Notes: generated by a model not told the origin, from the letters alone. DNA of 64,000 nt from Patescibacteria group bacterium (GCA_049322675.1 JBMORM010000025.1:64520-128519); one strand, 5' to 3'. Positions 4,011 through 42,155 are shown, counted from the stretch's first letter. Numbers and translations: made by a program.

Positions 4011-4275
4011 TTCTACGACAATTTTTTTGTTGTAAGATTCATTTTATTAATGTTTTTAAATTGAATCATTTATTCATTGGAAATTTAATGAAAATTGAAA
4101 ATTGGAAATTAAATAAAGTATTTCCCGCTGTACCGTATGCTAGACATTGAGCCTTTGTAAGGCCAAGTGAGTGTCCGCAGGTTTAGATTACGAAGAATCT
4201 AAACAAATATAGGACTCTCAATAAAAAAAGTGTCAGATTCAATGTTGTTAACATTCGAATACAGCAGGAATTTTT

Positions 4276-8990: not shown

Positions 8991-9192
8991 TTTTAAACAA
9001 AATACCAATTTATAATTTTTCCCTCACGGGACTTAAGCTGCTGCTGGCAATTTTCAAATATATTTTGTTGGGATTCTTGGGAGATTGTTAATTTATATAA
9101 GGATAGAACATTGTTCTGTCTTTTTTAACGTTTGGAAACTGGAAATTTTTTGGAAACTGGAAATTGGAAATTGGAAATTGTATGATATTGGT

Positions 9193-10203: not shown

Positions 10204-10336
10204 AAAAGATAAGTTGTAAGTTGCAAGTAACAAGCAGCAAGTGGAGGGAAAATACAATTCAATAAAATAACTTGAAACTTGGTACTTGATACTTAATCCT
10301 TGTAGTGGATATAATTTAAATTAATAAATATAAAAT

Positions 10337-12553
10337 TTGAAGATGAAAAAAGAGGGTTGGAAATTGGGTCTGGCACTAGTGGCGGTAGCTGCTTTGTTTG
10401 TTGCTGGATCTATTATAGTGCGTCCTTTTCCTTGGTTAAAAGCCAATGAATATAATATTATTGGAAGTTTGAAGGTTGCGGGTAAAGATTTTGTTTTTTC
10501 TGGTGATAATCCGTTGGTAATCGACAATGTCAGAGTGATCAAGGGTTATGCTTTGGCAAATGATGGTAGTAAGATTTATTTTGATGGTCAGGGTGGGGCG
10601 GAGATGGAAATTGATCAAATTGGATTTTTACATGGAAGGTTGTATTCATCCGATTTAGGCGTTGTGGATATTGGTTTGAATAGCAATAGAATTGCCAAGA
10701 TTGATTTAGCTGGTAATTTATCAGCGGATTTTTTGTTGGACAATGGTCAAAATGTTCTTTTGTCTGGTAAAACTTCTTGGCGTCCTTATGAATTAAATAA
10801 GGTTTCTGTGCCTGAAAAGTTGGATTTGGGAGTAAACTCTACTGTTAGGATTGATCCTGTTGTTTTGGGTTTGGCGGGAAGAGATTTGTATGATGTTCAG
10901 ACAAAGTGGTCGAGTGGTGACGAGAATATTTCGGTGGATGAGTACGGATATGTTACCGCAAAAAAGCCTGGAGTATATGAAGGAGCGGTGATTTTTCAAG
11001 TGGGAGAAACAAAAAAGGCGATTACTTTGGCGGCTACTCAAGGGATAGATAAAATATCTCTAAAGCCAGCGGTAGTTCTTGCTCCGTCGGGTCCTCAAAA
11101 TTTTGATTTGACTTTTGACCCTTCTAGCAAAGGTGATGAGATAAGGGGAGCAACTGGAATAACTGTAACAGGAACATTTGTAAATTCGGCTAACAAAAGA
11201 GTAACATGCGGTGACTATGATAGAAATTTTAATCAGTTGAAAAATTGTATTTTTGCTCAGGCTGAGGACGCTGGAGTGTGGAATTTGGAGTTTGTTATTG
11301 ACGAAGGTGGTCAGCAGGGAAAGTACGTTTTTCCGAGTGTATTGACGGTAATCAAAAAAGATAGCGCGTTAAATATGTCTTTATTGGCCAATGTTTACAA
11401 TGGTAAAAATACTGTTGCCGAAGCAGATATCAATCCGGAAAATATTATTAAGTTGGAACCGGAGTCAGCAGGAGGTCCATGGTATAAGTATTTGCGTTAT
11501 AAAGCTATTATCAATTGGCCCGGTTATTTGTTGCCTAAGGATGCGCAAAAGGGAAAAATTAATTCGGGTGTTTTAAATATTTCTTTTAAAGGACAAGGAG
11601 TGAGTGTTTCTGGTGCTGATTCATGTAATGTTTCAGATGGTATTCCTTCGTCTTTTTCGGTGACAGTTGGTAGTCAAGATATTGCTACTGACAGTTTGGC
11701 GATTGATATTCCTGAGTCGGTGTCTGATGCAGTAGAGATGAATGCTTTATTGGTACAGGGTTGTGATTTTGTTGCTATGTTGGATGCCGATTTCAATGTG
11801 GTTTTGCCTGATGGGACAGTAATGAGTGGGATAAAAGGTGGGGCCGAAGTGAGGACAGCGGTAGCCGGTCGTAAAAGGGTGTCGATAACCGGGGATGTGT
11901 TGGTAGAGCAGGGTGATTTGCAGATTAAACGATTGGACGAAGATCAAAATTTATATTTGCTGGTTGCAAGTGAAGATGTAAAAGCTAGTGGCGGCCAGGG
12001 GACTGCGGGTAGTGTTTCAGATTATCAATTGGGAGAGGATTCAACTTATAATAAAATGATTAGTACTTTGAGAGATAAGGTAAATAAGTTGGTGATTGAA
12101 AGAGGGGTGCAGCCCCCTTTTGATCCGTCTTCGACTGGCTCGGTTGGAGTTTTGCAGAGTTTTAATCTTGAACAAAAACAAAAAAATCCGGAAGGGCGGA
12201 TTTTGGTAGCCAATTCGGCAGGCGGTGAGGTAAGGCTAAATAATTTCGATGTTGGTGGTTTACAAATATGTGCTCCGACTACCTTAGTAGTATATGGTCG
12301 GGACGTAGTAATTGAGGATGATATTATTATGAATACTGGTGGAAATAGCACTTGTGTGGAAAGGGGGAATTTTGGCTTGATTGTGTTTGATGGAAATATT
12401 AGTTTTGCTGGAGATAGTGGTCCCAACGGGGCAGTAGAGAAAGTGGAAGGTTTTTACTTTACAACCGGTACGATTTCTACAGGGGCCAGTCACAAGAAGT
12501 TTTCATTGCAAGGTGTTGCTTTTGCTCATGATTATATTTTGGAAAGATTTTAG
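10337..12553 (+). CDS. Large secreted or surface protein (738 aa) with Ig-like (Big_2-type) domain(s)
   Basis: The signal peptide is MKMKKEGWKLGLALVAVAALFVAGS. A Big_2-like segment reads KWSSGDENISVDEYGYVTAKKPGVYEGAVIFQV. The protein is Gly/Ser/Asp-rich. Confidence 0.55.
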   Translation: MKMKKEGWKLGLALVAVAALFVAGSIIVRPFPWLKANEYNIIGSLKVAGKDFVFSGDNPLVIDNVRVIKGYALANDGSKIYFDGQGGAEMEIDQIGFLHGRLYSSDLGVVDIGLNSNRIAKIDLAGNLSADFLLDNGQNVLLSGKTSWRPYELNKVSVPEKLDLGVNSTVRIDPVVLGLAGRDLYDVQTKWSSGDENISVDEYGYVTAKKPGVYEGAVIFQVGETKKAITLAATQGIDKISLKPAVVLAPSGPQNFDLTFDPSSKGDEIRGATGITVTGTFVNSANKRVTCGDYDRNFNQLKNCIFAQAEDAGVWNLEFVIDEGGQQGKYVFPSVLTVIKKDSALNMSLLANVYNGKNTVAEADINPENIIKLEPESAGGPWYKYLRYKAIINWPGYLLPKDAQKGKINSGVLNISFKGQGVSVSGADSCNVSDGIPSSFSVTVGSQDIATDSLAIDIPESVSDAVEMNALLVQGCDFVAMLDADFNVVLPDGTVMSGIKGGAEVRTAVAGRKRVSITGDVLVEQGDLQIKRLDEDQNLYLLVASEDVKASGGQGTAGSVSDYQLGEDSTYNKMISTLRDKVNKLVIERGVQPPFDPSSTGSVGVLQSFNLEQKQKNPEGRILVANSAGGEVRLNNFDVGGLQICAPTTLVVYGRDVVIEDDIIMNTGGNSTCVERGNFGLIVFDGNISFAGDSGPNGAVEKVEGFYFTTGTISTGASHKKFSLQGVAFAHDYILERF

Positions 12554-12601: not shown

Positions 12602-13261
12602 ATGTCAGTAAAAAACAGCGAACTATTTGTAAGGATGGGGAAGTTGTTTTTGGTGGTGACGATGTTGTGTGTCGCTTTTGTAGTGACCTATTTTCTTATT
12701 ATGATGTCTTCTGGCAAGTATTTGCATTTTTCTGATTCACAGAAGTTGGAGGTGGAAAAAGAATATGAAGCTGTGACAGTTATGGCTAAAATATTTAGTG
12801 TGGATGAAAATAATTTAGTATTGCTTGAAGAAGGTACCGGGCGTTCGCTCAGTTTGGTACTTTCAAGTGCGAGCAAAATTGAAAAATATAATTCTGTAAA
12901 TAGAACGATTGATGTTTTAAATATATCCTCATTGATTTCCGGGTTACCAGTGATGGCGACTTTTAATCATACTAGCAAATTGATAGAAAAAATCACGATA
13001 TTGCCGGCGACTGTTTCCGGTAGAGTTTTGAGAAATGTTGCTGGGGTTGTGACGATAGATAATCTTTCGCAAGATAATTCGATTAGAACCGATATTAATA
13101 CTCTGGTCAGCAAGCAGGATGGCTTGGGTTCGATTGAGAGCGATTTGACTATTGCCGATGTAGTCATTGATGATAGAGTTTTGATTACTTTATCTGATAG
13201 TGGAGATAGGTTGGCATCCGAGATTAGTATTTTGTCGATTTCGGCGGAGGAACCTATATGA
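12602..13261 (+). CDS. Cassette A protein 1: N-terminally anchored single-pass membrane protein (paralogue of 18560-19234)
   Basis: ELFVRMGKLFLVVTMLCVAFVVTYF aligns with ELFARLGRLFLILVALCLAVILIYF in the paralogue. A shared ITILPA..SG.V.N.AGV.T motif is present. Confidence 0.5.
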   Translation: MSVKNSELFVRMGKLFLVVTMLCVAFVVTYFLIMMSSGKYLHFSDSQKLEVEKEYEAVTVMAKIFSVDENNLVLLEEGTGRSLSLVLSSASKIEKYNSVNRTIDVLNISSLISGLPVMATFNHTSKLIEKITILPATVSGRVLRNVAGVVTIDNLSQDNSIRTDINTLVSKQDGLGSIESDLTIADVVIDDRVLITLSDSGDRLASEISILSISAEEPI

Positions 13262-14109
13262 AATCGTTGCAGACAGAAAAACAAGTAGCGAAAAAATCTG
13301 TTTTATACAAGTATGTGATAATTGTTTTTATTGTGTTGGTTTTGTTTGTAATATTTATGATGATATTTTTTCGGATGTTTTCTGGTCGAGTTCCAGAATC
13401 TAGTACCGGTGATGATTTGCGTGATATTTCGGTTGTGAAAAATGAAGGTATAGATATTGTTCCAAATTTTTTGCCGGCAAAAGGTAGGTTAATTGAATTG
13501 ACCAACGCTGAAGCGACGATTCAAGATAGAATAACGGAAAAGATGGAAAAGGTGATTTTTTCTGATCTGACTACTTATTATTTTTGGGATCAAACAAATT
13601 TTGGTTATCAGCAAGGGACGCAGGAAAATTTGCACTTGGGGGATAATTTATCTTTGACCTACGCATCAAATGAAAAAAACAACGAGGAGGTATCTGTGGT
13701 TATGATTACCCCTCCATATTTTGAGTCGGGTTATGTGGAACAGATCGAAGGGAATAAGATTATCTTGGTTGACAATAAAGGTAAAAAATTTAATTTAAAT
13801 AATTGCGAGTTGGCTGTTGTGGAAAAGAGTGATGGAGTAGGACAAAAAATGAGAGCAACTTTCGATGAGATTAAAATTGGAGATTTGGTGACAGTTTATT
13901 CTTCATATGGTGTTCAGTATGATGATGCAACCTTTGAACCATCTTATCTTCAATTTATTTCTAAACAGAGCGATTTCTTGGATTTGTCTGAAATATCAAA
14001 TCAGCCGCTTGAATTTGAAGTTGAAAATCAAAATTTGGTAAACAGTGAAAATCTTCCGGCCGGGATAAATCCGACGGGGGTGGTGCCGGGGGTAGAGATT
14101 GGAAGTTGA
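13258..14109 (+). CDS. Cassette A protein 2: N-terminally anchored membrane protein (paralogue of 19255-20142)
   Basis: The N-terminal TM helix is YKYVIIVFIVLVLFVIFMMIFF. The C-terminus NLPAGINPTGVVPGVEIGS aligns with GINPSGTLPGVQIGE in the paralogue. A 4-nt ATGA overlap with the upstream gene suggests translational coupling. Confidence 0.5.
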   Translation: MKSLQTEKQVAKKSVLYKYVIIVFIVLVLFVIFMMIFFRMFSGRVPESSTGDDLRDISVVKNEGIDIVPNFLPAKGRLIELTNAEATIQDRITEKMEKVIFSDLTTYYFWDQTNFGYQQGTQENLHLGDNLSLTYASNEKNNEEVSVVMITPPYFESGYVEQIEGNKIILVDNKGKKFNLNNCELAVVEKSDGVGQKMRATFDEIKIGDLVTVYSSYGVQYDDATFEPSYLQFISKQSDFLDLSEISNQPLEFEVENQNLVNSENLPAGINPTGVVPGVEIGS

Positions 14110-14137
14110 GATGTTTTTTAATTAAAAATAATTAAAT

Positions 14138-15451
14138 TTGTTGATGAAAAAAATTCTAATTACTTTATTTTTGTCTTTTTTGATGTTACCGCTAAATGTT
14201 TTGGCGCAAGATAATCTAGATATGCAGATTGATAAATCTCAGGTTGGTGTCGAGGACGGTTTATATATATATGATGTTAAGGTTGAAGATAAAAATGATA
14301 ATAATTTAGGTGTCACTTTTGTTTTAGATAACAAGGCTAAGGCAAAGTTGAATTTGCATTACAATTTGGCGTTGGTTAAGGCTGATGGAAGTGGCCCGAT
14401 TGTAAGGTATTTTTCCAAGAACGATAAAAAGATTTTTAGTGTATCTCCTTATGAAAAAATTACTGAGCATTTGGATTTTGATGTGCCGGATTTTTATCAA
14501 GGTAGTTATAGAGTAGTGGTGAGGATTGGCAGTGTTTCTGGTTTGTCTTATGTGGGTATTTCCGAAAATGAAGTTATTTTGAGTGGTGATGGAAAATATA
14601 TCGATTTGTCTGAATGTAGAGTTTTGGTTGATACAGAAAAGGATAAAGATTATGGTTTGCAGTTGGGATTGGTTTTAAATCGTGGCGAGCGAGGGTATAT
14701 AAATTGTTTGGCAAAAAATATTTCTGATAGCGATATTCAGGTGAAAAGCAGTCAGGATATTTTTTTGAGAGACGAATTTAGCGATTTGCAAGATACAATA
14801 ACTGAAGATAGTGTTGTTGCTTTTTCGCCGAGGCAAGAAAAAAATATCAGTTTTATTATTTTGGGAACGGACGGGTTGTCTCCTCAGGCTTATACCAATG
14901 TATTACGTTTAGTTTCTGATGGTAGGATATTGTCCAATGATATTTATTTTCATTATATTATTTCTGGATTATCAGGTAGTATAAACAAAGTGGTTCTGGA
15001 TAAAGATTATTATCAAATGGGGGATGTGGCTTTGTTGGAGTTAGGTATTACAGATAGGGCTGACATATACAATGGTTCTCGGTTTACAGGAAAAGAATCA
15101 GAAAAGGGCATGATTGAAATCGAGTTGTTAAATAAAAACAACGAAGTTTGTGTTAGAAATATTACTGATTTGGATCAGTTACAAATATTGGATAATAATT
15201 ACAACTTTTCTTTAAAAATTGTAAAAGAATGTATTGATCCTTATATAAAATTAAATTTGTCCGATAAAAGTGGCAACAGTTTAGATAAATTTGATGCTAA
15301 ACTTCTGAGTAAAAGTATTTCGAGCCAAAAAAATGAAGTAAAAATTCAAAATGAAAAATATGATGTTTCTTATTTTTGGTATGTTTTGATTTTTTTGATT
15401 GGATTTATATTTGTCATTGTTCTATTTTTATCGAAGAGGAAGAAAAGATGA
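14138..15451 (+). CDS. Cassette A protein 3: type-I membrane protein (signal peptide, C-terminal TM plus KRKKR tail)
   Basis: The signal peptide is MLMKKILITLFLSFLMLPLNVLAQD. The C-terminal TM helix and tail read YFWYVLIFLIGFIFVIVLFLSKRKKR. Confidence 0.5.
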   Translation: MLMKKILITLFLSFLMLPLNVLAQDNLDMQIDKSQVGVEDGLYIYDVKVEDKNDNNLGVTFVLDNKAKAKLNLHYNLALVKADGSGPIVRYFSKNDKKIFSVSPYEKITEHLDFDVPDFYQGSYRVVVRIGSVSGLSYVGISENEVILSGDGKYIDLSECRVLVDTEKDKDYGLQLGLVLNRGERGYINCLAKNISDSDIQVKSSQDIFLRDEFSDLQDTITEDSVVAFSPRQEKNISFIILGTDGLSPQAYTNVLRLVSDGRILSNDIYFHYIISGLSGSINKVVLDKDYYQMGDVALLELGITDRADIYNGSRFTGKESEKGMIEIELLNKNNEVCVRNITDLDQLQILDNNYNFSLKIVKECIDPYIKLNLSDKSGNSLDKFDAKLLSKSISSQKNEVKIQNEKYDVSYFWYVLIFLIGFIFVIVLFLSKRKKR

Positions 15452-18429
15452 AATATTTTTATTTGTCATCGATATTGTTGGCTATATTTTTGTTTAATGC
15501 CGATTTTGCGAAGGCAAATTCAGTTAATAGTCAGTTTCGATTTGAGTGTGATGAGCCTGATTGTCCAACTGGTTGCTATAATTCTGGTTGTGATAGTTGT
15601 GATACGAATTGCGGAAATTATCCTTGTATATGCATGGGTGGAGGGCCTAATACTAGTGGCTGTATTGGTTATTCTATTAATACCAGTAAGGATGAATATC
15701 GTCCGGGAGAAAATGTTTCGATATATTACTCAACTTATGATGGCGGGGGATGTAATAACTATGGTCCTGATTGGGAAGATGCGATTAGAGTGTATTTGAA
15801 TAATATTGATGTGGGAGGCTTGGTATATTTTCCTACTGGTTGGTGGAATTATGGTTTAGCTCCGGCATGTAGCGATCCCAACGGTTGTATTTATAATGTC
15901 TCAGTTGGTTTTAGGTCGTGTAATGGTCAATCGCCTCTAAGAAATGTTAATACTGTTTCTTTTAGAGTAAGACAGCCGAACGATTATGCTCCGGTTATAA
16001 ATAGTACTTCTCCGACTAATGGTGAGGTGAAGTGCACTAATCGTCTTCGGGTGGGAATATATGCCAATGATGGAGATGGGGCGACTCAGTTGAATTCCGA
16101 TTTTTATAATGGTGCTGGGACGAAAATTGGTGATGATGATCGTTGGGCAGGGCCTGGTTTGGAGTGGTTTTTGACCAATGATTTGAATTGGAATCCGGGA
16201 AGAAATGATTGGAGTGCGAGTATTTCCGATGGAAAATTTTCAACTTCAGTTAGTCGTTATTTCGTAGTGAATAGGAATCCTTCTTGTTCGTCAGTTTCTG
16301 GTCCGACCGGTGTTAAAAATCCTGGTAGTTATCAGTTTAATATGTCCACTAGTGACCAGGATGGAAATATTAATAATGCTAAGATCGTATTGAGTAATGG
16401 AGCAGAAATTGATCCGGGTGGTTATTATAGTGCTCCTGCAGGAAATTATTCCTATTATGGTCGAGTTAGAGATATTTGTACAACATCTACTTGTGCGGGA
16501 AGTAATTTTAGATTAAATGATGTGCCGTCGATAAGTGTATTCACGGCTACTCCGGGTTGCGATGTCAATAGTGGTGAGTATTATTCTTGGACTGTAAATA
16601 TCAGTGATCAAGACAATGTATCTTGGAGGTTGTATGAGAGTATAAATTCCGGAGCTTATACCCAAATCTATAGTTCGACACAAAAAAATAGGCAAGGCAC
16701 AAGATCGTTCGGTTTTGGTAATAAGAATATAAGATTGCGTTTGGATGTAGTTGATGATTATGGTGCTTCTGCGACAAGATCATATGGACCTTTTACTTTA
16801 AATTGTTCGCCCAAGTCTCCAACTGATTTGAGAGAGACGGTTAGTTGTCGTAATGTCAATTTGTCCGCTTGGGTAGAAGATCCTGATGGAGGTAATTTGA
16901 CGGTTACATTTAGTCCGAATGTAACATTTACTCCATCTGGGGGGAATGTTGTCAATGTTTCTAGTGGGAGGAGGGCGAGTGTAGATTTGGTATTACCCAT
17001 GAATTCCAATTTCACTTGGTCGGTTAGTGCAACTGATAATTTGTCTCCTTTGGTTCGGACTAATAGGGGTTTGTCGTTGTGGACCAATCGTACTCCTTTT
17101 GATAAACATTCCGATGGTATTACTTATGTCGGTGTTTTGAATCCGGTAGCAATTAATCTTGATTTGACTCAAAATCCAAATAGTTTGGTTATTAGTCCCA
17201 GGTTTGTGATTGATTATGATAAAACTGGGTTGGGAGCATTGAATATGGATGATTATAGTACTGAGAACGGTGATACATCTGATCCTTCGGCTTTGAATCA
17301 GGAAGTGAAGTCGAGGTTTTATCTTGATGTTTGGACTTTGGTCAATGGTAGTTGGGTTTGGTACAATGTTGGTTATAGTCCAAATCTTCTTGATCCTGCA
17401 GTAACATCGCTATCTTCGTCTAGCGCTCAATACTCACATAGAGAAAATTTCTCTGGTTTGTATGCTGGAGATTGGCAATATCGGGCAACTGATACTGATA
17501 AATGTGGAGCGGCGGTGACTAGTCCAAATTATTTATTTAGAGTAGCGCCACCAGTGCCAATCAATCTATCGGTCAATATGGGTACGGCTGGTTGTCCGAT
17601 TTGCGGGAATAGAAATACGGCAATCGTGTTGGATTGGGATGATGTGCCATATATTCAGTATGCTCAATCAACGTCAATTGGAGGAGGATATCGAGTTGAT
17701 TGGAGCAATGATGGAGGAACAACTTGGCGGCCGGTGACCAAATCTTTGCCTGATTCTACTGCTGGTTGGACAAGTGATAGCCGAATAGTATTGGTGACTG
17801 ATGTGTTAAATTTGTATGATTTGTCTACTTCAACTGTTAGAAATATTCGTTATCGTGTAGCTTCATACTCAAATGGTATAAGATCAAATTGGCTATATTC
17901 TGATATTGTGCCATACAATTGTGAGATACCTACCGGAGTGGCTGTCAATTCTGGAAATTCGATTGAATTGCGTGCCGATGAAAATTCTCAACCTGTCAAT
18001 GTTTTGTTGACATGTAGAAGATTCAATGATCCTTCGGGTGTGGTGTCCGGGACATCGACAATCAATCAAGTTGACCGGGCGAGAGCCGCCAATCCTAATA
18101 ATTCTTCTCCGACTATCAACTGGACTATTGTTAATTTAACCAATTGTTCGAGCGGGACGGAAATGGTAAATAATCCTGTTTCAGATGGAACGATCCCAAA
18201 AAATATTTTGCATGCTGGAACTAATACTACTCTCAGCCCATGCGATGGGTATTTGTGGGCCAAATTAACCAACTTTGGTTGGTCAGATGTGGGAATCAAC
18301 GAACTAAATGGTAATGTATATGTGGCGATAAATCCGCGAGCAACAGAAGAATTCAACTATTCCGGGGAAGTTATTTCCAATCCGCCGCCTGGTTTTGAAA
18401 AATTGGATTTACCGGGTGTGGAGAAATAA
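15448..18429 (+). CDS. Cassette A giant secreted Cys/Asn/Gly/Trp-rich surface protein (about 993 aa; paralogue of 21534-24458)
   Basis: The signal peptide MKYFYLSSILLAIFLFNADFAKA starts at 15448 (ATGA overlap with the upstream stop). The ORF track begins earlier, at 15376. The C-terminal roughly 290 aa are near-identical to the paralogue. That stretch includes GTAGCPICGNRNTAIVLDWDDVPYIQ. The shared terminal motif is INPRATEEFNYSGEVISNPPPGFEKLDLPG. Confidence 0.6.
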   Translation: MKYFYLSSILLAIFLFNADFAKANSVNSQFRFECDEPDCPTGCYNSGCDSCDTNCGNYPCICMGGGPNTSGCIGYSINTSKDEYRPGENVSIYYSTYDGGGCNNYGPDWEDAIRVYLNNIDVGGLVYFPTGWWNYGLAPACSDPNGCIYNVSVGFRSCNGQSPLRNVNTVSFRVRQPNDYAPVINSTSPTNGEVKCTNRLRVGIYANDGDGATQLNSDFYNGAGTKIGDDDRWAGPGLEWFLTNDLNWNPGRNDWSASISDGKFSTSVSRYFVVNRNPSCSSVSGPTGVKNPGSYQFNMSTSDQDGNINNAKIVLSNGAEIDPGGYYSAPAGNYSYYGRVRDICTTSTCAGSNFRLNDVPSISVFTATPGCDVNSGEYYSWTVNISDQDNVSWRLYESINSGAYTQIYSSTQKNRQGTRSFGFGNKNIRLRLDVVDDYGASATRSYGPFTLNCSPKSPTDLRETVSCRNVNLSAWVEDPDGGNLTVTFSPNVTFTPSGGNVVNVSSGRRASVDLVLPMNSNFTWSVSATDNLSPLVRTNRGLSLWTNRTPFDKHSDGITYVGVLNPVAINLDLTQNPNSLVISPRFVIDYDKTGLGALNMDDYSTENGDTSDPSALNQEVKSRFYLDVWTLVNGSWVWYNVGYSPNLLDPAVTSLSSSSAQYSHRENFSGLYAGDWQYRATDTDKCGAAVTSPNYLFRVAPPVPINLSVNMGTAGCPICGNRNTAIVLDWDDVPYIQYAQSTSIGGGYRVDWSNDGGTTWRPVTKSLPDSTAGWTSDSRIVLVTDVLNLYDLSTSTVRNIRYRVASYSNGIRSNWLYSDIVPYNCEIPTGVAVNSGNSIELRADENSQPVNVLLTCRRFNDPSGVVSGTSTINQVDRARAANPNNSSPTINWTIVNLTNCSSGTEMVNNPVSDGTIPKNILHAGTNTTLSPCDGYLWAKLTNFGWSDVGINELNGNVYVAINPRATEEFNYSGEVISNPPPGFEKLDLPGVEK

Positions 18430-18465
18430 ATTGTTGTTTGGCGATGTTGTTTATTTGAGGCGGGC

Positions 18466-18499
18466 TTTCAAGTCCGCCCGGATTTTTTTGTAAAATCTG
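18466..18499 (+). terminator. Rho-independent terminator (GC-rich hairpin plus T7)
   Basis: GGCGGGCTTTCAAGTCCGCCCGG is followed by ATTTTTTTG. It is the only GC-rich stretch after the giant gene. Confidence 0.7.
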
Positions 18500-18559
18500 A
18501 TCGATTATTATGTTAAAATTGTAATTAGTTTAAGGTTTTATATTAAGGAGTGGAAAAAT

Positions 18560-19234
18560 ATGCCTGGGAAAAATAATGGTGAGTTATTTGCACGGCTTGG
18601 AAGATTATTTTTAATATTGGTAGCTTTGTGTTTGGCAGTAATATTAATATATTTCGTTGTTTTGCTGGCGACAGGTCAGGTGACCAATCCACAAAAAAAT
18701 ATTAATGAAAAAGAGTCGGAAATATCTCAAGTTCAAGTTCCGATAAATATTTTGAGTGGAGAAATAAGAAAAATTGAAGATAAAAATATAGAGTTTTTTG
18801 ATATGCAAAAGAATCAATTGTTGCAGTTGACCGTTTTGGATTATGCCGTGATTGATAAATACAATCCAAGCACAAATATTAATAGCGAGTTGACCTTAGA
18901 AGAAATTCAACCTGTATCTTTGGGTAATCTGACTTTGGACGATCAAGGCCAAGTGTCTCATATTACTATTTTACCCGCGGTAAATATTTCGGGTGAAGTG
19001 ACAAATAATCAGGCCGGAGTTATCACCTTGAAGTCAAACAATTCTGATTACACAGTGCGGGTTAATGCAATGACAAAAATTAATAAACAAAAAACTGATG
19101 GTACTTTGGAAAATGACTTGACTGAGTCTGATATCCAAGTGGGTGAAGTAATTTCTGTTGTATCTGACAGCGATACAAAAGTTGGGTCCAAGTCATTTGT
19201 GGCGGGCTTGATTAGTATTTTATCCAGATCATAA
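18560..19234 (+). CDS. Cassette B protein 1: N-terminally anchored membrane protein (paralogue of 12602-13261)
   Basis: See the paralogue alignment under cassette A protein 1. The TM helix is LFLILVALCLAVILIYFVVLL. Confidence 0.5.
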   Translation: MPGKNNGELFARLGRLFLILVALCLAVILIYFVVLLATGQVTNPQKNINEKESEISQVQVPINILSGEIRKIEDKNIEFFDMQKNQLLQLTVLDYAVIDKYNPSTNINSELTLEEIQPVSLGNLTLDDQGQVSHITILPAVNISGEVTNNQAGVITLKSNNSDYTVRVNAMTKINKQKTDGTLENDLTESDIQVGEVISVVSDSDTKVGSKSFVAGLISILSRS

Positions 19235-19254
19235 TTTTTATTAAAAGTATTTTT

Positions 19255-20142
19255 ATGGATCAAAATATAAATGGAAAAAAGAATATTGGTAAAATAATTT
19301 TGATAGTATTTGTGGTTTTGGTGGTGTTTATTATTTTTATCGGTGTGATTTTTAAGATTTTGTATGGACAGCAAAGCAAGCCGGGAGATTTGAGCAATAA
19401 TCAAATCTCCAATGAGGCAGATTTGACGGGAAATGCTTCCTCGCAAAAAAATGAACCAATAGAGCCGGAAAGTCAGGAAAAAATTCAAAATAAATCTGGT
19501 TTGGTTAATACCGGTAGGTTAATTCAGATTAACAAGGGCAGTATGGCCGTTAAAGAAGAATCTAGCGGAAAAATGTCGGATGTTAAAGTGACTGATCGAA
19601 CGGTAATTTATCGTTGGAGTTTGGAGAATGGAAACTTGGAAATAGCAAAATCATCTGATGCCAAAGTGGGACAAAAAGTGGCTTTGAGCTATTTTGATGA
19701 GGACAAAGGAAATAATGAAGTGAGTGTGATGTCGATTTATCCGCCCTTTATGGTGACGGGAGTAGTGGAAAGTATTGATAGTGAAAAGATGATTGTAAAT
19801 GATACGGTTGAAGGAAAAAAATATACGGCAAATTTATTGAGTCCTAAAGTTTCCAAGTTTGATGATAGTGGTCAAAAGGTAACATCTTCTGTTGCGGAGA
19901 TTGCCAAAGGTGATAGGTTGATTGTTTATTCTGATTATGATGTGGAATATTCCAAATCAAATTTTGATGCCATATTGGTGGAGATAGTGGTAAAAAATAA
20001 TGCCAAATTGGTTGTGCCGGATAACGGTAATCAGCTTTCAAATCCGACTGATAGTAATATTCAACCGGTTGATGTTGCAACTCCGCCGCCGGTGGGTATC
20101 AATCCAAGTGGCACGTTGCCGGGTGTGCAGATTGGGGAGTAA
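19255..20142 (+). CDS. Cassette B protein 2: N-terminally anchored membrane protein (paralogue of 13258-14109)
   Basis: The TM helix is IILIVFVVLVVFIIFIGVIF. It shares the EVSVMSIYPPF and GINPSGTLPGVQIGE motifs with the paralogue. Confidence 0.5.
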   Translation: MDQNINGKKNIGKIILIVFVVLVVFIIFIGVIFKILYGQQSKPGDLSNNQISNEADLTGNASSQKNEPIEPESQEKIQNKSGLVNTGRLIQINKGSMAVKEESSGKMSDVKVTDRTVIYRWSLENGNLEIAKSSDAKVGQKVALSYFDEDKGNNEVSVMSIYPPFMVTGVVESIDSEKMIVNDTVEGKKYTANLLSPKVSKFDDSGQKVTSSVAEIAKGDRLIVYSDYDVEYSKSNFDAILVEIVVKNNAKLVVPDNGNQLSNPTDSNIQPVDVATPPPVGINPSGTLPGVQIGE

Positions 20143-20168
20143 ATATTTTCTAAATAAAGGGAAATTTT

Positions 20169-20801
20169 GTGAAGAAAAAAGGAAAGACAAGAGTGGTGTC
20201 ATTTTGGTGGGTTGTTTTGATTGTTCTCGCCTTGTTTTTGTTTGTTTTGTCGTCAATTTTTATAAAAAATAATTACTCTAAAAATCCCGAGGTTGCACAA
20301 AAAGAAAAAAGTTATTACGGGTATTTTCAAATGTTGGATGGTGAAGAATTGAGTTTTAGAGATGTTTTAAAAAATACTGATGAAAAAATAATACTTGGGG
20401 AAGATGTAACTTTTGAGTTGATGGATGCTTATTCGAAAGATCGTTCTTTTATTTCTAGGGCTGATTTAAAAGAAAATAAATTATATACAGTTTTTTGTCA
20501 TATTTCTGGGGACAAGAATGAGGCATTTAATGTTGTGGAGATTCCTTCGGTGAGTATTATTGGTAGAGTAAAGGAAATTTCTGAGAATATGATTAAAGTT
20601 ATTTACAACGGTGAAATTTATGAAGTGAAGTATGATGAAAAAACGATAAAGCAGCAATATGATGGTAAAAAATATAGTGATTATGTTGGAGATTATAGTG
20701 AATATCCAATGGTTGTAGTAACTTCGGACAATATGGCGTTATACGATGATACATCAATTAACGTAGCCCATATTGATGTGGTTCCTTTTGAGTCATTTTA
20801 G
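20169..20801 (+). CDS. Cassette B protein 3a: N-terminally anchored membrane protein
   Basis: The start codon is GTG. The TM helix is VVSFWWVVLIVLALFLFVLSSIFI. A beta-rich ectodomain follows (VYSDY...-type segments shared with the family). Confidence 0.45.
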   Translation: MKKKGKTRVVSFWWVVLIVLALFLFVLSSIFIKNNYSKNPEVAQKEKSYYGYFQMLDGEELSFRDVLKNTDEKIILGEDVTFELMDAYSKDRSFISRADLKENKLYTVFCHISGDKNEAFNVVEIPSVSIIGRVKEISENMIKVIYNGEIYEVKYDEKTIKQQYDGKKYSDYVGDYSEYPMVVVTSDNMALYDDTSINVAHIDVVPFESF

Positions 20802-20818
20802 CAAAAAGTAAAAATATT

Positions 20819-21520
20819 ATGAGAAAGATTTTTTATTGGTTTCTTTTGGTTGCGGTATTAATTTTACTAGGTGCGGGTTGGTATTATTATTCGGCCTTAT
20901 GGGAGGCGCAAAAGGGGATTGAGATTAAAGTGGAAGGCAGTAATGTGTCTAAGCCGGAAAATGATTCTGATTTGGCAAAGGAGGATGATTTGACTTCGGT
21001 GACGGGACAAGGAGAAGTAGTTTTGATTGATGAGAAAAATATAGTGATAAAAGATATTGATGGGCGTCAGCAATCATGGAAAATTGCCGAACGTCCGATG
21101 GTGCAAACTTTGAACATGAATAATTTAATATATGAAGATAGTTTGTTGGCTGATATTAAAGTGGGTTCCAATGTTTTTTTGGCGGGTCTGGGAAATGATA
21201 AAACGAGATATGCTCATTTATTTCAAATTGAATTTGGGAAAAGACTTGAAGGTAAGTTATTTTCGATTAGTGGTAAGAATTTTGTTATTGAAATAGATGG
21301 TGGGGAAAAGATAAAAGTGTTTTATGATGATAAAACACTTTTAAAAGAGATCAAAACAAACCAAGAAATAGTTGATAATTTTGAGTTGAATGTTGGAAAT
21401 TATCTTGTGCTATATTGCGACGTAATTGAGAATGGCAATTATAAAGCCAATGTAATATTCCAAAGATTGATTAAAGAAGATAATTTGCAAGTGATTAACA
21501 TTGAAAATAATAGTAAATAA
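20819..21520 (+). CDS. Cassette B protein 3b: N-terminally anchored membrane protein
   Basis: The TM helix is IFYWFLLVAVLILLGAGWYYY. The ectodomain is Lys/Glu-rich. Confidence 0.45.
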   Translation: MRKIFYWFLLVAVLILLGAGWYYYSALWEAQKGIEIKVEGSNVSKPENDSDLAKEDDLTSVTGQGEVVLIDEKNIVIKDIDGRQQSWKIAERPMVQTLNMNNLIYEDSLLADIKVGSNVFLAGLGNDKTRYAHLFQIEFGKRLEGKLFSISGKNFVIEIDGGEKIKVFYDDKTLLKEIKTNQEIVDNFELNVGNYLVLYCDVIENGNYKANVIFQRLIKEDNLQVINIENNSK

Positions 21521-21533
21521 AAATAGTCTATTT

Positions 21534-24458
21534 ATGAATTTCTATTTTAAGTTAATTTTAATTGTCGTATTGTTTTTTTTGAATGCAGAAAGAGTTGATG
21601 CTGGTTGCCCAGATTCGCCTTGTTATAATAGTTGGGGAAATGGCATGAATTTTGGTCCTGTTAGTTATTATTTTGACAATAGTTCTAAAGTTTTGACAAT
21701 GCATAATTGGGTTGGTTGTCTAACTTCTCGCAATGGTTGCACCTTGAATGGTGCAAGTGTTTATGTGTTTATCAGAGTTATGGGTAGGCAGTTGAGTCCG
21801 GGTTGGAATACTAAGTTATGGTCTAGTGGTGATATTTGGAGTGCAGCTGGTCATTCTTGGGGAGGGGTTAATCTTTACACGCCTTCGTCGATATATCCTG
21901 GCTCGCCAACAGCTTCAATTTCAGGAACTGTTATGAATGTAAGGGAAGGATCTGTTTCGGCTCAGTTTACCGATCTCAATGATGGGGAAACTTTTTTTGT
22001 CACCCCATCATATTTAGTTGGTGGTACAAATTGTAATTTTGGTTGTTTAGCAGATAACTCGTATTATACGTCTTTTACATATGTAAAACCAAATTATTAT
22101 CGTCCAATATTTTATCAGGATTGGCCGCCAAATGGTATTACAATGTGTTATAACGGTTTTGGGTTACAGGGGCATATAAGGGATTATGATTATCCTTCCA
22201 CGGGTGATTACGCTAAGATATATTCTACTGCTTATGGTTGGGCAGATGTTGCAAATTCTGGTAATTTGGGTGATTGGGGAACAGCGGCAATTGGTGGTCG
22301 AAATTGGCCGAGTGGGAATACTGGGTGGTATGGATATGCTTATGACAGGTATGGCGATGGACCTACTCCGGGGTATTATAACTTTAACATCAATCGTTCG
22401 CCTTCGATAAGTTCTACCAATGGACCTTCTTGCAATTATACTTATCCTCAACCGCAAAGTTTTTACTTTGCAATAAATCCAAATGATCCAGATGGAAATT
22501 ATTCTTCGATTAATGTGATTATTGATGGTGGAACATATGGAAATGGTTCTTGGATATATTTGAATCCGGGAAATCATAGTTGGTATGGTCGGGTATGTGA
22601 TAGTTGCGGTCAGTGCGCACAGACGTCAACTTGTAATTTTAGAGTTAATAGTATACCAACGGTGTCGGCGGGTTGGCCGTCTGCTGGTTGTAATACTGTA
22701 ACTTTGAGTGCAACGGCATATCATGATTTTTCTCCCGGTGATCAGGCTTGGATCAGGTTTGATTATTGGGGAGGAAGAAGTGGATCAGCAACATATCAGA
22801 TAAGTTGGAATGGACAATCTTTTAGTTTGCCTTTGGGTGGAGTTCCTGGTAATAGTACGGTGTATTGGAGTGCCACCGTTTGGGATAGTAATGGAACATC
22901 AAATCGGGTGAATGGTCAAGCGGTGACTCCCAACTGTACCCCCAACCCACCATATGGTTTTAACCAAACTATCAATTGTGCCAATGCCACTTTGTACGCT
23001 AGCGGATCCGATCCGGATGGTGGTCAGCTATATATGACTTTTACTACCAATAATCCCTGGATGTCCAATCAGGTTAACATTTGGAGTGGACAACAAGCCA
23101 GTACGACTTTCAATTTGGGTTTTGATCGAGCCTTTTCCTGGATGGTTTCTGCCAGGGATCCATATGGCGCACAAAGAGATTCGGGATGGATGGGAACATA
23201 TCTGACTGACAGATCACCACAAGGAAAAGTTTCCGATGTGTTAACTTACAAAGCGGTAAATTACAATCCGTCATCAAATCCCAGATTTGTAATCGACGAT
23301 GCCGCTACCAGATTGCAACCAGTGACTGTAAATGATCATAGTTATGATCCTGATGGCAATAATCAAAATGTGCAAGCGACTTTCTGGTTGGAAATATATA
23401 ATGCCGGAACAGGATCTTGGCAATCTCTCGGTTCTTCTGCCTTGAGACCACCAACTAATATTGTCGGGGGGACGTATTATCATGATGTTCCATTCAACAA
23501 CCTCTACGCCGGTCAACACCGTTATCGCGCCCAAGATCGGGATGCTTGTGGAGCAGTGTCATCGGTTAGTTCATATTACAACTTTACGATTGCGCCACCG
23601 GCGGTTAAAAATATTACAGTAAACAGTGGTACGGCGGGTTGTCCGGCTTGCGGAAACAGAAATACCGCAATCGTGGTTGATTGGGATGATGTGCCATACA
23701 TTCAAAATGCTCAATCCAGTGGAATCGGAGGCGGATATTACGTAGAGTGGAGCAATGACGGTGGAGCAACATATCGGGCGGTAACCAAATCACTTCCCGA
23801 CGCAACCGCTGGTTGGACGAGTGATAGTCGAATTGTTTTAGTTACAGATGTTTTAAATCTTTACAATTTGCCTACTTCTACTGCCCGCAATATTCGTTAT
23901 CGCGTAGCTTCATACTCCAATGGGGTGTATTCCGACTGGTTGTATTCAAATGTGGTAACTTACAACTGTCCGATACCGGGTGGGTTGACTCTTTCTCCCA
24001 ATCCGGTAGATATGCGCGGTGACGAAGATTCACAACCGTTAACGGCGAGAATTCATTGCCGAGACTTTAATGGTGGAGTGGTAGGAGTATTAGGTGGAGA
24101 TATGATTAGTGCAGCTCAAGCCAATAGAATTTATTCGCCTGATACGACTCCGGTTTCCTTTGTTTGGAATCAAACTGATATCACTAATTTGAACAATTGT
24201 TCGACCGGAACACAGATCAATACTCCGCCAAATCCGGGAAATACCATTCATGCTGGTTCTAATACGACAGTTGATCCTTGTGAAGGCAAATTGGGCGCAA
24301 CTTTGACCAATTACGGTTGGCCGGAAATCGGCGCTTTGACCGGTGACACTTGGATATCTATCAACCCAAGAGCAACAGAAGAATTCAATTATTCCGGTGA
24401 AGTCATATCCAATCCACCACCGGGTTTTGAGAAATTGGATTTGCCCGGGATGCAGTAG
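21534..24458 (+). CDS. Cassette B giant secreted Cys/Asn/Gly/Trp-rich surface protein (about 974 aa; paralogue of 15448-18429)
   Basis: The signal peptide MNFYFKLILIVVLFFLNAERVDA suggests the ATG at 21534; the ORF track starts at a TTG at 21501. The C-terminal module aligns with the paralogue, including TIAPPAVKNITVNSGTAGCPACGNRNTAIVVDWDDVPYIQ. The terminal motif is INPRATEEFNYSGEVISNPPPGFEKLDLPGMQ. Confidence 0.6.
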   Translation: MNFYFKLILIVVLFFLNAERVDAGCPDSPCYNSWGNGMNFGPVSYYFDNSSKVLTMHNWVGCLTSRNGCTLNGASVYVFIRVMGRQLSPGWNTKLWSSGDIWSAAGHSWGGVNLYTPSSIYPGSPTASISGTVMNVREGSVSAQFTDLNDGETFFVTPSYLVGGTNCNFGCLADNSYYTSFTYVKPNYYRPIFYQDWPPNGITMCYNGFGLQGHIRDYDYPSTGDYAKIYSTAYGWADVANSGNLGDWGTAAIGGRNWPSGNTGWYGYAYDRYGDGPTPGYYNFNINRSPSISSTNGPSCNYTYPQPQSFYFAINPNDPDGNYSSINVIIDGGTYGNGSWIYLNPGNHSWYGRVCDSCGQCAQTSTCNFRVNSIPTVSAGWPSAGCNTVTLSATAYHDFSPGDQAWIRFDYWGGRSGSATYQISWNGQSFSLPLGGVPGNSTVYWSATVWDSNGTSNRVNGQAVTPNCTPNPPYGFNQTINCANATLYASGSDPDGGQLYMTFTTNNPWMSNQVNIWSGQQASTTFNLGFDRAFSWMVSARDPYGAQRDSGWMGTYLTDRSPQGKVSDVLTYKAVNYNPSSNPRFVIDDAATRLQPVTVNDHSYDPDGNNQNVQATFWLEIYNAGTGSWQSLGSSALRPPTNIVGGTYYHDVPFNNLYAGQHRYRAQDRDACGAVSSVSSYYNFTIAPPAVKNITVNSGTAGCPACGNRNTAIVVDWDDVPYIQNAQSSGIGGGYYVEWSNDGGATYRAVTKSLPDATAGWTSDSRIVLVTDVLNLYNLPTSTARNIRYRVASYSNGVYSDWLYSNVVTYNCPIPGGLTLSPNPVDMRGDEDSQPLTARIHCRDFNGGVVGVLGGDMISAAQANRIYSPDTTPVSFVWNQTDITNLNNCSTGTQINTPPNPGNTIHAGSNTTVDPCEGKLGATLTNYGWPEIGALTGDTWISINPRATEEFNYSGEVISNPPPGFEKLDLPGMQ

Positions 24459-24483: not shown

Positions 24484-24511
24484 TATTGTAGGGGCGGTTC
24501 ATGAACCGCCC
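24484..24511 (+). terminator. Perfect palindromic GC-rich hairpin terminator (GTAGGGGCGGTTCATGAACCGCCCCTAC)
   Basis: It is a 28-nt perfect palindrome directly after the giant gene stop codon. It belongs to the GGGGCGG hairpin family. Confidence 0.7.
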
Positions 24512-24526
24512 CTACATTTATGTACG

Positions 24527-24561
24527 TTGACAAATTTGGAGGTCATATGTTATACTGTATA
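24527..24561 (+). promoter_or_regulatory. Sigma70-like promoter for the pil operon (TTGACA, 17 bp spacer, TTATAC/TATACT)
   Basis: The sequence is TTGACAaatttggaggtcatatgTTATACtgta. It lies about 30 bp upstream of pilM, right after the terminator. Confidence 0.5.
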
Positions 24562-33806: not shown

Positions 33807-33836
33807 ATTAATTTTTAATTTCTAAACAATAATAGA

Positions 33837-33961
33837 TGTCATTCTGGAGCCGAAAGCGTAATCGCGTTTCGACATCCAGAATCCAGAAAGAAAAAATTTA
33901 ATAAATTAAGGAAATGGATCCTGGATATTGGAGCGGATTACCTTCCAGTTCCAGGATGACA
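33837..33961. repeat. MITE-like element with terminal inverted repeats TGTCATTCTGGA...TCCAGGATGACA (hairpin repeat copy 2 plus the GGATCCTGGATATTGGAGCGGATTACCTTCCAGTTCCAGGATGACA half-element)
   Basis: The two ends are reverse complements of each other. The right half recurs at 35650-35700. The left half recurs at 32843-32895 and 37231-37285. Confidence 0.5.
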
Positions 33962-34003
33962 CAGATTAGTATGTTTAAAAATTAAAAATTAAAAATTAAA
34001 AAT

Positions 34004-35623: not shown

Positions 35624-35649
35624 AAAAATGGATAGTCGAAAATTTGGAA

Positions 35650-35700
35650 AGTGGATCCTGGATATTTGAACGGATTACCTTCCTAGTTCTAAGGATGACA
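35650..35700. repeat. Half-element repeat GGATCCTGGATATTTGAACGGATTACCTTCCTAGTTCTAAGGATGACAG (copy of 33916-33961)
   Basis: It is about 85% identical to the right half of the 33837-33961 element. Confidence 0.5.
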
Positions 35701-35845: not shown

Positions 35846-35846
35846 A

Positions 35847-41429: not shown

Positions 41430-41456
41430 CTCCTTTTCAGGGTTTAATATAAATAA

Positions 41457-42151: not shown

Positions 42152-42155
42152 CTCC

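What the first reader, a model, noticed from the sequence alone, without database searches (positions are those of the whole stretch)
12602..24458. Tandemly duplicated five-gene surface cassette ending in giant Cys-rich secreted proteins, directly upstream of the type IV pilus operon
Two back-to-back co-directional gene sets, 12602-18429 and 18560-24458, are paralogous position by position. (1) A protein of about 220 aa has one N-terminal TM helix; ELFVRMGKLFLVVTMLCVAFVVTYF aligns with ELFARLGRLFLILVALCLAVILIYF, and a shared ITILPA..SG.V motif is present. (2) A protein of about 290 aa is N-terminally anchored and ends GINPTGVVPGVEIGS in one copy and GINPSGTLPGVQIGE in the other. (3) One or two further single-pass membrane proteins follow. 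(4) A secreted protein of about 1000 aa is extremely rich in Cys, Asn, Gly, Trp and Tyr. The C-terminal roughly 290 aa of the two giant proteins are highly similar, including GTAGCP(I/A)CGNRNTAIV(L/V)DWDDVPYIQ and the tail INPRATEEFNYSGEVISNPPPGFEKLDLPG. Genes within each cassette are tightly coupled, with ATGA overlaps at 13258 and 15448. Each cassette ends in a GC-rich hairpin terminator. The second terminator is followed within 20 bp by the pil-operon promoter. None of the five protein types shows a motif I can assign to a characterised family, apart from generic Ig/FN3-like beta-rich character. A multi-component membrane-anchored module duplicated in tandem next to pilMNOBTC-pilA-pilD points to a dedicated cell-surface apparatus. 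It could be an adhesin or host-attachment system working with the pilus. This would fit an episymbiotic CPR-like lifestyle.
Basis: partly seen in the sequence, partly recalled or inferred. Interest (0 to 1): 0.75.

Follow-up and report, generated by a model that had tools for sequence, protein, structure and literature searches.

The report
Variable surface-protein cassettes in a Patescibacterium
An uncultivated ultra-small bacterium carries two tandem copies of a fast-evolving, undescribed gene set that probably tethers a very large, variable protein to the cell surface, and its position next to the pilus genes looks incidental.

Summary
The tandem duplication is real. Position 3 is not paralogous, and Cys is only 2.2-2.7%.

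The giants have hypervariable N-terminal halves, Ig-like repeats and a conserved C-terminal module. That module ends in a peptide, EEFxY[ST]G..[IL][ST]xPPPGFE, present in all 11 relatives found. Its 28-aa core is invariant with only synonymous DNA changes.

A3-like anchors are overlapping with or fused to the giants. Mosaic identity and a 1,690-nt identical tract show recombination.

Across about ten related loci the constant neighbours are two upstream membrane proteins (9085-12553), not type IV pilus genes. Pilus adjacency holds in two of four testable contexts.

The family is tiny: 11 hits among 1.84 billion representatives. It is probably a lineage-specific, recombining surface display or adhesin module. 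Function and docking mechanism are inferred, not shown.

The parts
9085..10203 (+). u372: signal peptide plus C-terminal TM anchor. Conserved upstream member of the locus. The true start is probably downstream of 9085, around 9190-9250.
   Evidence: TM scan. Orthologues sit in the same position in L001, L004, L009, L017/18 and L019, at 94-38% identity. No Pfam hit.
10337..12553 (+). u738: N-terminally anchored 738-aa beta-rich protein. The most constant neighbour of the cassette.
   Evidence: TM scan. Orthologues lie immediately upstream of the small proteins in L001, L004, L009, L014, L017/18 and L019, at 95-31% identity. No Pfam, NCBIfam or PDB hit.
12602..13261 (+). A1: type-1 small protein, with an N-terminal TM helix and tandem OB-like barrels.
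   Evidence: 31% identical to B1. Superfamily membership by hmmsearch and MSA.
13258..14109 (+). A2: type-2 small protein. N-terminal TM, linker, two OB-like barrels and the C-terminal GINPTGVVPGVEIGS peptide. ATGA overlap with A1.
14138..15451 (+). A3: signal peptide, ~390-aa beta-rich ectodomain, C-terminal TM and RKKR. Overlaps the giant gene here (ATGA). Fused to the giant in five other copies.
   Evidence: Fusions in L003, L007, L009b, L010 and L011.
15448..18429 (+). A4: secreted giant (993 aa). Variable N-terminal part, Ig-like repeats and the conserved C-terminal module.
18334..18417 (+). Sequence encoding the invariant 28-aa tail PRATEEFNYSGEVISNPPPGFEKLDLPG of A4.
   Evidence: It differs from the B4 copy at 13 of 84 nt, and all differences are synonymous.
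18459..18490 (+). Intrinsic terminator after cassette A (8-bp stem with 6 GC pairs, followed by a T run).
18560..19234 (+). B1: type-1 small protein.
19255..20142 (+). B2: type-2 small protein. Modelled as TM helix 11-37, disordered 40-79, barrels 86-162 and 166-246, and a disordered C-terminal GINPSGTLPGVQIGE peptide.
20169..20801 (+). B3a: a further N-anchored tandem-barrel paralogue, type-1-like.
   Evidence: The type-1 profile scores E 7e-9. The L009 type-1 protein hits it at E 2e-11.
20819..21520 (+). B3b: a further N-anchored paralogue, the most divergent of the set.
   Evidence: The type-1 profile scores E 2e-4. It aligns over both barrels.
21501..24458 (+). B4: secreted giant (985 aa from TTG at 21501; an ATG at 21534 gives a cleaner signal peptide).
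24366..24449 (+). Sequence encoding the invariant 28-aa tail of B4.
24487..24516 (+). Intrinsic terminator after cassette B (13-bp stem). A similar hairpin ends the L010 cassette.
24527..24556 (+). pil-operon promoter (TTGACA-18-TATACT with TG). It is a neighbour, not part of the module.
   Evidence: It is conserved upstream of pilM in L009.

Best explanation
This is a lineage-specific, recombining cell-surface display module of a narrow Patescibacteria clade, present here in two tandem copies.

Components (shown):
- Each copy encodes two to four bitopic membrane proteins. Their ectodomains are two tandem OB-like beta-barrels, distantly related to DUF5666/DUF3221, held away from the membrane on a disordered linker.
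- Each copy also encodes a ~1000-aa Sec-secreted protein with a hypervariable N-terminal region, Ig-like repeats and a conserved C-terminal module.
- That module ends in a near-invariant peptide, EEFxY[ST]G..[IL][ST]xPPPGFE.
- Usually a C-terminally anchored A3-like protein is translated together with the giant. The genes either overlap or are fused as a polyprotein of the form ectodomain-TM-basic loop-internal signal peptide-giant.

Mechanism (inferred):
- After export and signal-peptidase cleavage, the giant has no anchor of its own.
- It is held on the cell by non-covalent docking of its conserved C-terminal module or proline-rich tail.
- The docking platform is one of the membrane-anchored partners: the barrel proteins, the A3-like protein, or the always-adjacent u372/u738.
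- The variable N-terminal half points outward as the ligand-binding end, plausibly for attachment to a host cell.
- Recombination between paralogues and strains swaps the outward half while the docking end stays fixed.

The module is transcribed separately from the type IV pilus operon and does not depend on it genomically.
For: Topology: every product has a signal peptide or one TM. The giants have a signal peptide and no anchor.

A3-giant coupling: an ATGA overlap here, and in-frame fusions that keep TM, RKKKK and a signal-like segment in L003, L007, L009b, L010 and L011.

Constraint on the tail:
- Its 28 aa are invariant in 7 copies.
- It occurs in 5 DNA versions that differ at 6-14 of 84 nt, all synonymous.
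- The core motif is kept in L011, L008 and L017/18, where u738 is only 33% identical.

Variable outward end and recombination:
- B4 versus its orthologue is 18-48% identical over aa 1-420 and 80-98% over aa 481-985.
- The two L009 paralogues share an identical 1,690-nt 3' tract.
- L007 is mosaic.

Faster evolution than the flanks: dN/dS is 0.10-0.32 in the cassette against 0.02-0.14 in flanking genes. In L009 the giants are 41% identical while PilM/N/O are 68-79%.

Conserved unit across loci.

Separate transcription from the pil operon.

Large, strain-variable, Cys-containing extracellular proteins have already been noted in CPR genomes as putative attachment factors (PMC4736985). Adhesin-like envelope proteins are essential for epibiotic growth of a Saccharibacterium (PMC10633639).
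Against: - No experiment or expression data exist.
- The fold of the giants and of A3 could not be modelled. AF2 on the C-terminal module gave pLDDT 31.
- No docking interaction was tested, and the partner of the tail is unknown.
- The candidate partners inside the cassette are far less conserved than the tail. This argues for a more constant partner such as u738, a cell-wall component or an enzyme.
- Cassette B lacks an A3-like protein, and L009 cassette 1 lacks its own barrel proteins, so no single stoichiometric complex fits all copies.
- Gene-wide dN/dS is below 1, so diversifying selection is not shown.
- Tandem-barrel proteins also occur with a secreted protein that lacks the tail (L015).
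Confidence: 0.5

Rival explanations
1. Pilus-associated adhesins. The giants would be functional analogues of PilY1/PilC: a variable N-terminal adhesin and a conserved C-terminal part that engages minor pilins. They would be carried on the type IV pilus, with the small barrel proteins acting as assembly cofactors in the manner of PilY2.
Against: - No PilY1/PilC, vWA or N_methyl domain was found.
- The PilY2 match ranks 15th among generic OB folds.
- There are terminators and a separate pil promoter.
- Pil adjacency is lost in L017/18 and L007.
- The pilin genes lie at the far end of the pil operon, not next to the cassette.
Confidence: 0.12
2. Structural envelope layer. The giants and the A3-like proteins would form an S-layer-like coat, anchored by the barrel proteins. 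Their variability would reflect phage or predator pressure rather than host binding.
For: - The composition is S-layer-like: rich in N, S, T and G, poor in K and E.
- The precursor is split into an anchor and an exposed part, as in Clostridioides difficile SlpA (my own knowledge).
- S-layers are seen on ultra-small groundwater bacteria (Luef 2015, as cited in PMC4736985).
Against: - No SLH, CWB2 or other S-layer domain was found.
- The giants contain 22-27 cysteines, and ten are invariant across the six aligned copies, which is unusual for S-layer proteins.
- Several divergent paralogues per genome, at several loci, fit adhesins better than a single lattice protein.
- No evidence on abundance exists.
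Confidence: 0.15
3. Covalently sorted wall proteins. The conserved C-terminal peptide would be a sorting signal recognised and processed by an unidentified transpeptidase or protease, rather than a docking peptide.
For: The motif always lies 9-11 residues from the C-terminus. It is far more conserved than any protein in the locus. That pattern is typical of enzyme-recognised sorting signals.
Against: No TM segment or basic tail follows the motif, unlike LPXTG, PEP-CTERM or PGF-CTERM signals. No sortase or exosortase-like gene is present in the 64-kb window. NCBIfam sorting-signal models do not match the giants.
Confidence: 0.1

Closest known systems
Large, strain-variable, cysteine-containing extracellular proteins of CPR/Patescibacteria (Anantharaman et al. 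2016, PMC4736985); essential adhesin-like envelope proteins of Saccharibacteria (Wang et al. 2023, PMC10633639)
   Same: They are large Sec-exported proteins without known domains, clustered and variable between strains. They have been proposed to mediate attachment in host-dependent ultra-small bacteria.
   Different: Cys is only 2.2-2.7% here, against about 7% in the Peribacteria cluster. No sequence relationship was tested or found. The module here has defined partners (tandem-barrel anchors, A3-like protein, u372/u738) and a conserved C-terminal peptide, neither of which those papers describe.
DUF5666 (PF18914) / DUF3221 (YobA, PDB 4qy7) small beta-barrel domains
   Different: None of the window proteins reaches any Pfam threshold (E <= 1). 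They have an N-terminal TM anchor, a fixed two-barrel architecture and, in type 2, a conserved C-terminal peptide. Neither DUF has a known function.
PilY1/PilC tip adhesins with PilY2 in type IVa pilus minor-pilin operons
   Same: A large secreted protein with a variable N-terminal part and a conserved C-terminal part. It is encoded near pilus genes, has paralogues, and sits beside a small OB-fold protein.
   Different: There is no PilY1 beta-propeller or vWA domain. The module is not in the minor-pilin operon. It forms a separate transcription unit. Pil adjacency is not conserved in deeper relatives.
Anchor-plus-exposed-subunit surface systems of monoderms: C. difficile SlpA precursor cleaved into wall-bound and variable subunits; cellulosomal dockerin-cohesin tethering (analogy from my own knowledge)
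   Same: One precursor or coupled gene pair yields a membrane- or wall-held part and a variable exposed part. A conserved terminal module may tether a large extracellular protein to anchored partners.
   Different: No CWB2, SLH, cohesin or dockerin domains are present. Cleavage would be by signal peptidase at an internal signal sequence. Docking is hypothetical.

Membership tests
PilN / PilO / PilP (T4P alignment subcomplex) | Match to PF05137, PF04350 or PF04351. N-terminal TM followed by a ferredoxin-like (PilN/O) or PilP beta-sandwich fold. | tested here: not met
   No such Pfam or NCBIfam hit at E <= 1 for any small protein, whereas the real PilO at 26520 scores 5.5e-7. The B2 model is two OB-like barrels.
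DUF5666 (PF18914) | Significant match to the Pfam model. | tested here: not met
   No window protein hits PF18914 at E <= 1.
DUF5666 (PF18914) | Profile-level homology to bona fide members, and a small beta-barrel fold. | tested here: met
Type IV pilins / pseudopilins | N-terminal class III signal: the N_methyl motif (G|F/M xxxE) before the hydrophobic helix. | tested here: not met
   There is no PF07963 hit in any cassette protein, while four real pilins downstream do hit. The N-termini lack G-F-T-L-x-E.
PilY1 / PilC adhesins | C-terminal PilY1/PilC beta-propeller (PF05567), often with an N-terminal vWA domain. | tested here: not met
   The giants have no Pfam or NCBIfam hit. The fold itself could not be modelled.
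Sortase (LPXTG) substrates and other C-terminal sorting signals | A motif followed by a hydrophobic segment and a basic tail at the C-terminus. | tested here: not met
   The giants end 2-6 residues after ...LDLPG, with no TM. A3 has a TM and RKKR but no LPXTG-like motif; its Loki-CTERM hit is only E 0.23. No sortase gene is in the window.
S-layer proteins (SLH / CWB2 anchored) | SLH or CWB2 wall-binding domains; lattice formation. | tested here: not met
   No such domains were found. Lattice formation cannot be tested with these tools.
Bacterial Ig-like (Big/DPDG-type) domain proteins | Repeated ~90-aa beta-sandwich with an N..P...P.NG....DPDG signature. | tested here: inconclusive
   The giant profile hits PDB 9kvu_A, 'bacterial immunoglobulin domain B1', at E 5.5e-4 over one repeat. 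B4 has three D-P-D-G sites, at 329, 504 and 616. No Pfam Big model matches.
Phage or mobile-element proteins | Match to phage protein families or presence on viral contigs. | tested here: not met
   PHROGs gives nothing meaningful. The IMG/VR scan with the tail motifs found no relative.

The most novel reading that the evidence does not exclude
The conserved C-terminal peptide (EEFxY[ST]G..[IL][ST]xPPPGFE), together with the membrane-anchored tandem-barrel proteins and/or u738, constitutes a previously unrecognised non-covalent surface-docking system of wall-bearing Patescibacteria. Interchangeable giant adhesin heads, swapped by recombination, would be plugged into this system. The module would then be a host-range determinant of the episymbiotic lifestyle in this clade.
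Probability: 0.2. Interest if true: 0.7.

Novelty: new variant of a known kind. Interest (0 to 1): 0.45.

Why it matters
How Patescibacteria recognise and hold on to their hosts is largely unknown, and known candidates are mostly pili and a few adhesin-like proteins in cultivated Saccharibacteria. This locus offers a concrete, bounded candidate in an uncultivated lineage. It combines a conserved docking end with a hypervariable, recombining outward end, which is what a host-specificity determinant would look like.

The near-invariant C-terminal peptide is a simple search handle for finding such proteins in metagenomes. It also gives a clear target for interaction prediction or biochemistry.

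The scope is limited. The family is confined to a small clade, no function is demonstrated, and the attractive link to the pilus is not supported.

Tried and rejected
- AF2 of the B4 C-terminal 300 aa with a 3-sequence alignment failed (pLDDT 31).
- The first exhaustive-search job failed because the profile was too long.
The giants' C-terminal module was therefore never searched exhaustively.
- The word-index searches with the giant and with its C-terminal profile returned 2 and 1 proteins. They missed known members, including the query's own paralogue, so their negatives are weak.
- PDB profile searches were negative for the A3-like family, u738 and the C-terminal module.
- The afdb50 fold library was unavailable. 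Foldseek against the PDB gave only generic tandem-OB hits.
- PilN/O/P paralogy was rejected.
- Phage origin was rejected.
- Gene conversion as the cause of the identical tails in this window was rejected. The DNA differs at 13 of 84 positions, all synonymous. Conversion is real in L009.
- Gene-wide positive selection is not supported, because dN/dS is below 0.32.
- Polymorphic-toxin logic was rejected because the variable end is N-terminal, not C-terminal.
Full report
**1. What is in the sequence.**

The region lies in a run of + strand genes with strong positive GC skew. NCBI names the proteins 'MAG: hypothetical protein ACOZAR_04960/04980/04995 [Patescibacteria group bacterium]', on a 192,646-bp contig.

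The genes are:

| Gene | Coordinates | Length or note |
|---|---|---|
| u372 | 9085-10203 | |
| u738 | 10337-12553 | |
| A1 | 12602-13261 | |
| A2 | 13258-14109 | |
| A3 | 14138-15451 | |
| A4 | 15448-18429 | 993 aa |
| B1 | 18560-19234 | |
| B2 | 19255-20142 | |
| B3a | 20169-20801 | |
| B3b | 20819-21520 | |
| B4 | 21501-24458 | 985 aa |

Downstream follow pilM, a pilN-like gene, pilO, pilB, pilT, pilC, a pilin, pilD and three more N_methyl pilins.

**2. Check of the observation.**

- A1/B1 are 31% identical (E 1e-26), A2/B2 32% (E 2e-32), and A4/B4 41% over 864 aa (E 3e-170).
- The ATGA overlaps at 13258 and 15448 are real.
- Hairpin terminators follow A4 (18459-18478) and B4 (24487-24516, 13-bp stem).
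- An 11/12 match to a sigma-70 promoter with an extended -10 lies at 24527-24556, before pilM.
- Position 3 is not paralogous. A3 has a signal peptide and a C-terminal TM plus RKKR, whereas B3a and B3b have N-terminal anchors.
- The giants contain 2.2-2.7% Cys against 0.8% in neighbouring proteins. This is enriched but not extreme. N, G, S, T, W and Y are enriched, and K and E are depleted.
- Pfam, NCBIfam and PHROGs give nothing significant for any of the nine proteins.

**3. The small proteins.**

Profile comparison first suggested that type 1 and type 2 share a domain. Local profile searches then tied A1, B1, A2, B2, B3a and B3b into one superfamily. The type-1 profile scores B3a at 7e-9 and B3b at 2e-4, and the type-2 profile scores B1 at 1e-7. 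All align over two tandem domains.

An exhaustive HMMER search of 1.84 billion representative proteins with the type-2 profile found only 11 proteins at E <= 1e-3, and 3 at <= 1e-30. The distant hits include genuine DUF5666 repeat proteins: P0011 (Pfam 6.5e-29) and P0017.

With the 16-sequence alignment, AF2 modelled B2 at pLDDT 82-95 across residues 80-255. The model has these parts:
- a TM helix at 11-37;
- a disordered linker at 40-79;
- two beta-barrels at 86-162 and 166-246;
- a disordered C-terminal peptide.

**4. The giants.**

Six copies from three genomes align.
- The first ~180-250 residues are unalignable. Identity stays below 30% to about residue 420.
- From about residue 700 a conserved module begins, including an invariant C-P-x-C.
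- The last 28 residues, PRATEEFNYSGEVISNPPPGFEKLDLPG, are invariant.
- The tail occurs in five distinct DNA versions that differ at 6-14 of 84 positions, and every difference is synonymous. This shows purifying selection on the peptide, not homogenisation.
- More distant proteins keep the core EEFxY[ST]G..[IL][ST]xPPPGFE, always 9-11 residues from the end. These are L011, L008/P0007 and L017/18, where u738 is only 33% identical.
- One Ig-like repeat is weakly recognised (PDB 9kvu_A, E 5.5e-4), and three DPDG sites mark such repeats.
- The C-terminal module could not be folded (pLDDT 31) and matches nothing in the PDB by sequence.

**5. A3-like proteins and the fusion.**

A3 relatives are 23-27% identical across genomes and have no detectable family. 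In L003/L002, L007, L009b, L010 and L011 the A3-like ectodomain, its TM and a basic stretch are fused in frame to a hydrophobic signal-like segment and then to the giant.

Here, in L004 and in L009a the two are separate genes, and in this window they overlap by ATGA. The fused topology is self-consistent: out, TM, short cytoplasmic loop, signal-like TM, out. It predicts cleavage by signal peptidase into an anchored protein and a free giant. That cleavage is inference.

**6. Evolution.**

- Flanking genes are much more conserved than the cassette. In L009, PSP1 is 79%, PilO 79% and u738 66% identical, against 41% for the giants, 42-51% for the small proteins and 27% for A3.
- dN/dS is 0.10-0.32 in cassette genes and 0.02-0.14 in flanking genes. 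dS for B1 and B2 against L001 (~1.18) exceeds that of the flanks (0.3-0.8), which suggests allele replacement.
- B4 against its L003 orthologue is 18-48% identical over residues 1-420 and 80-98% over 481-985.
- The two L009 giants share an exactly identical 1,690-nt 3' tract.
- L007 is a mosaic of B4-like and L009-like segments.
- Recombination therefore shuffles N-terminal halves onto a conserved C-terminal half.

**7. Genomic context in relatives.**

| Locus | Gene order |
|---|---|
| L004 | u372, u738, A1, A2, A3, A4 |
| L001-3 (MAG CTOTU29514) | u372, u738, type 1, type 2, fused giant |
| L007 (same MAG) | another fused giant, followed by murE, femAB, tsaD, valS |
| L009 | u372, u738, A3-like, giant, type 1, type 2, fused giant, pilM, pilN, pilO |
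| L010, L011 | type 1, type 2, fused giant; the contigs start and end at the cassette |
| L014 | u738-like, then a barrel protein |
| L019 | u372, u738, two barrel proteins, a secreted protein |
| L017/L018 | see below |
| L015 | barrel proteins beside rnpA/yidC, with a secreted protein that lacks the tail |

L017/L018 come from a deeper relative. The order is holB, PSP1, TPR, L33, u372, u738, two barrel proteins, three secreted proteins (the last bearing the C-terminal module and the tail), then a glycosyltransferase. There are no pil genes.

The constant association is u372 + u738 + barrel proteins + tail-bearing protein. Pil adjacency holds in two of the four contexts where the downstream side is visible. 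The pilM promoter is conserved in L009.

**8. Interpretation.**

All parts are extracytoplasmic or membrane-anchored. The giants lack an anchor yet carry an extremely constrained C-terminal peptide. Their other end is hypervariable and recombining. Anchored partners are always encoded beside them and are sometimes fused to them.

The most economical reading is a surface-display module. In it, the conserved end docks the giant to anchored partners and the variable end binds an external ligand, most plausibly a host-cell surface given the lifestyle of cultivated Patescibacteria (PMC10633639). Which partner binds the tail is open. Its conservation exceeds that of every cassette protein, which points to u738, a wall component or an enzyme.

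Rivals are a pilus-borne adhesin, an S-layer-like coat and a covalent sorting signal. Each has some support and specific evidence against it, listed in the rival explanations.

**9. Novelty and verdict.**

The general kind is known: large, variable extracellular proteins in CPR genomes, proposed as attachment factors (PMC4736985). This particular architecture, its barrel-protein partners, the polyprotein form and the C-terminal motif are in no family library searched, and I found no description of them in the papers searched.

The family is very narrow, and nothing about its function is demonstrated. I rate it a new variant of a known kind, of moderate interest.

Noticed in passing
window 33836-33966 (between pilD and the 539-aa pilin); half copy at 35640-35683; related sequences in L007 at 9968-10036 and 12963-13009: A 131-nt near-perfect long hairpin (RNA fold -55.4 kcal/mol, z -8.7). 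One arm recurs upstream of the next pilin gene and in intergenic regions of a related genome at unrelated loci. It looks like a small palindromic repeat element (MITE/REP-like) or a large terminator. Rfam has no match.
   Followed up: partly
window 34004-35623: A 539-aa protein with a pilin N_methyl signal and DUF4215 Cys-rich repeats (about 100-nt periodic CDDG..NG repeats in the DNA). This would be an unusually large modular pilin. It could itself be a pilus-borne adhesin and is a better candidate for that role than the giants.
   Followed up: partly
window 35700-35850; also the first 32 nt of L010: AT-rich GGAAATTGAAAATT-type direct and inverted repeats fill the intergenic region upstream of the pilin gene at 35847. 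A similar stretch precedes the cassette in L010. It may be a shared promoter or regulatory element.
   Followed up: no
window 39060-43517, - strand: A radical SAM/SPASM enzyme (42159-43517) lies beside an NHL-repeat protein (39060-40538) and a small unannotated ORF, in the only - strand block of this part of the window, where the GC skew flattens. This may be a peptide-modification cluster.
   Followed up: no
window 4118-4273, - strand: A 6S RNA (Rfam RF00013, 59.4 bits) lies next to tRNA-Pro and an M50 peptidase gene.
   Followed up: no
L001, L002, L003, L010, L011 (contig ends): Assemblies of relatives repeatedly break inside or exactly at the ends of the cassette. L010 and L011 are essentially one cassette each, and L010 ends in the terminator hairpin. 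This fits repeats or strain heterogeneity at this locus, so the module is probably under-represented in MAGs.
   Followed up: partly
window 21501-24458 versus NCBI protein P0001: The deposited protein for B4 is 959 aa, 26 residues shorter than the ORF. That start would remove the signal peptide, so the start call is probably wrong. A4 was not returned by either word-index search although it is an intact ORF.
   Followed up: no
giant proteins, B4 residues 714-717 (A4 716-719): An invariant C-P-x-C motif (GTAGCPACGNRNT) sits at the start of the conserved C-terminal module in all copies aligned. It could be a structural disulfide or a metal or redox site. Its significance is unknown.
   Followed up: no
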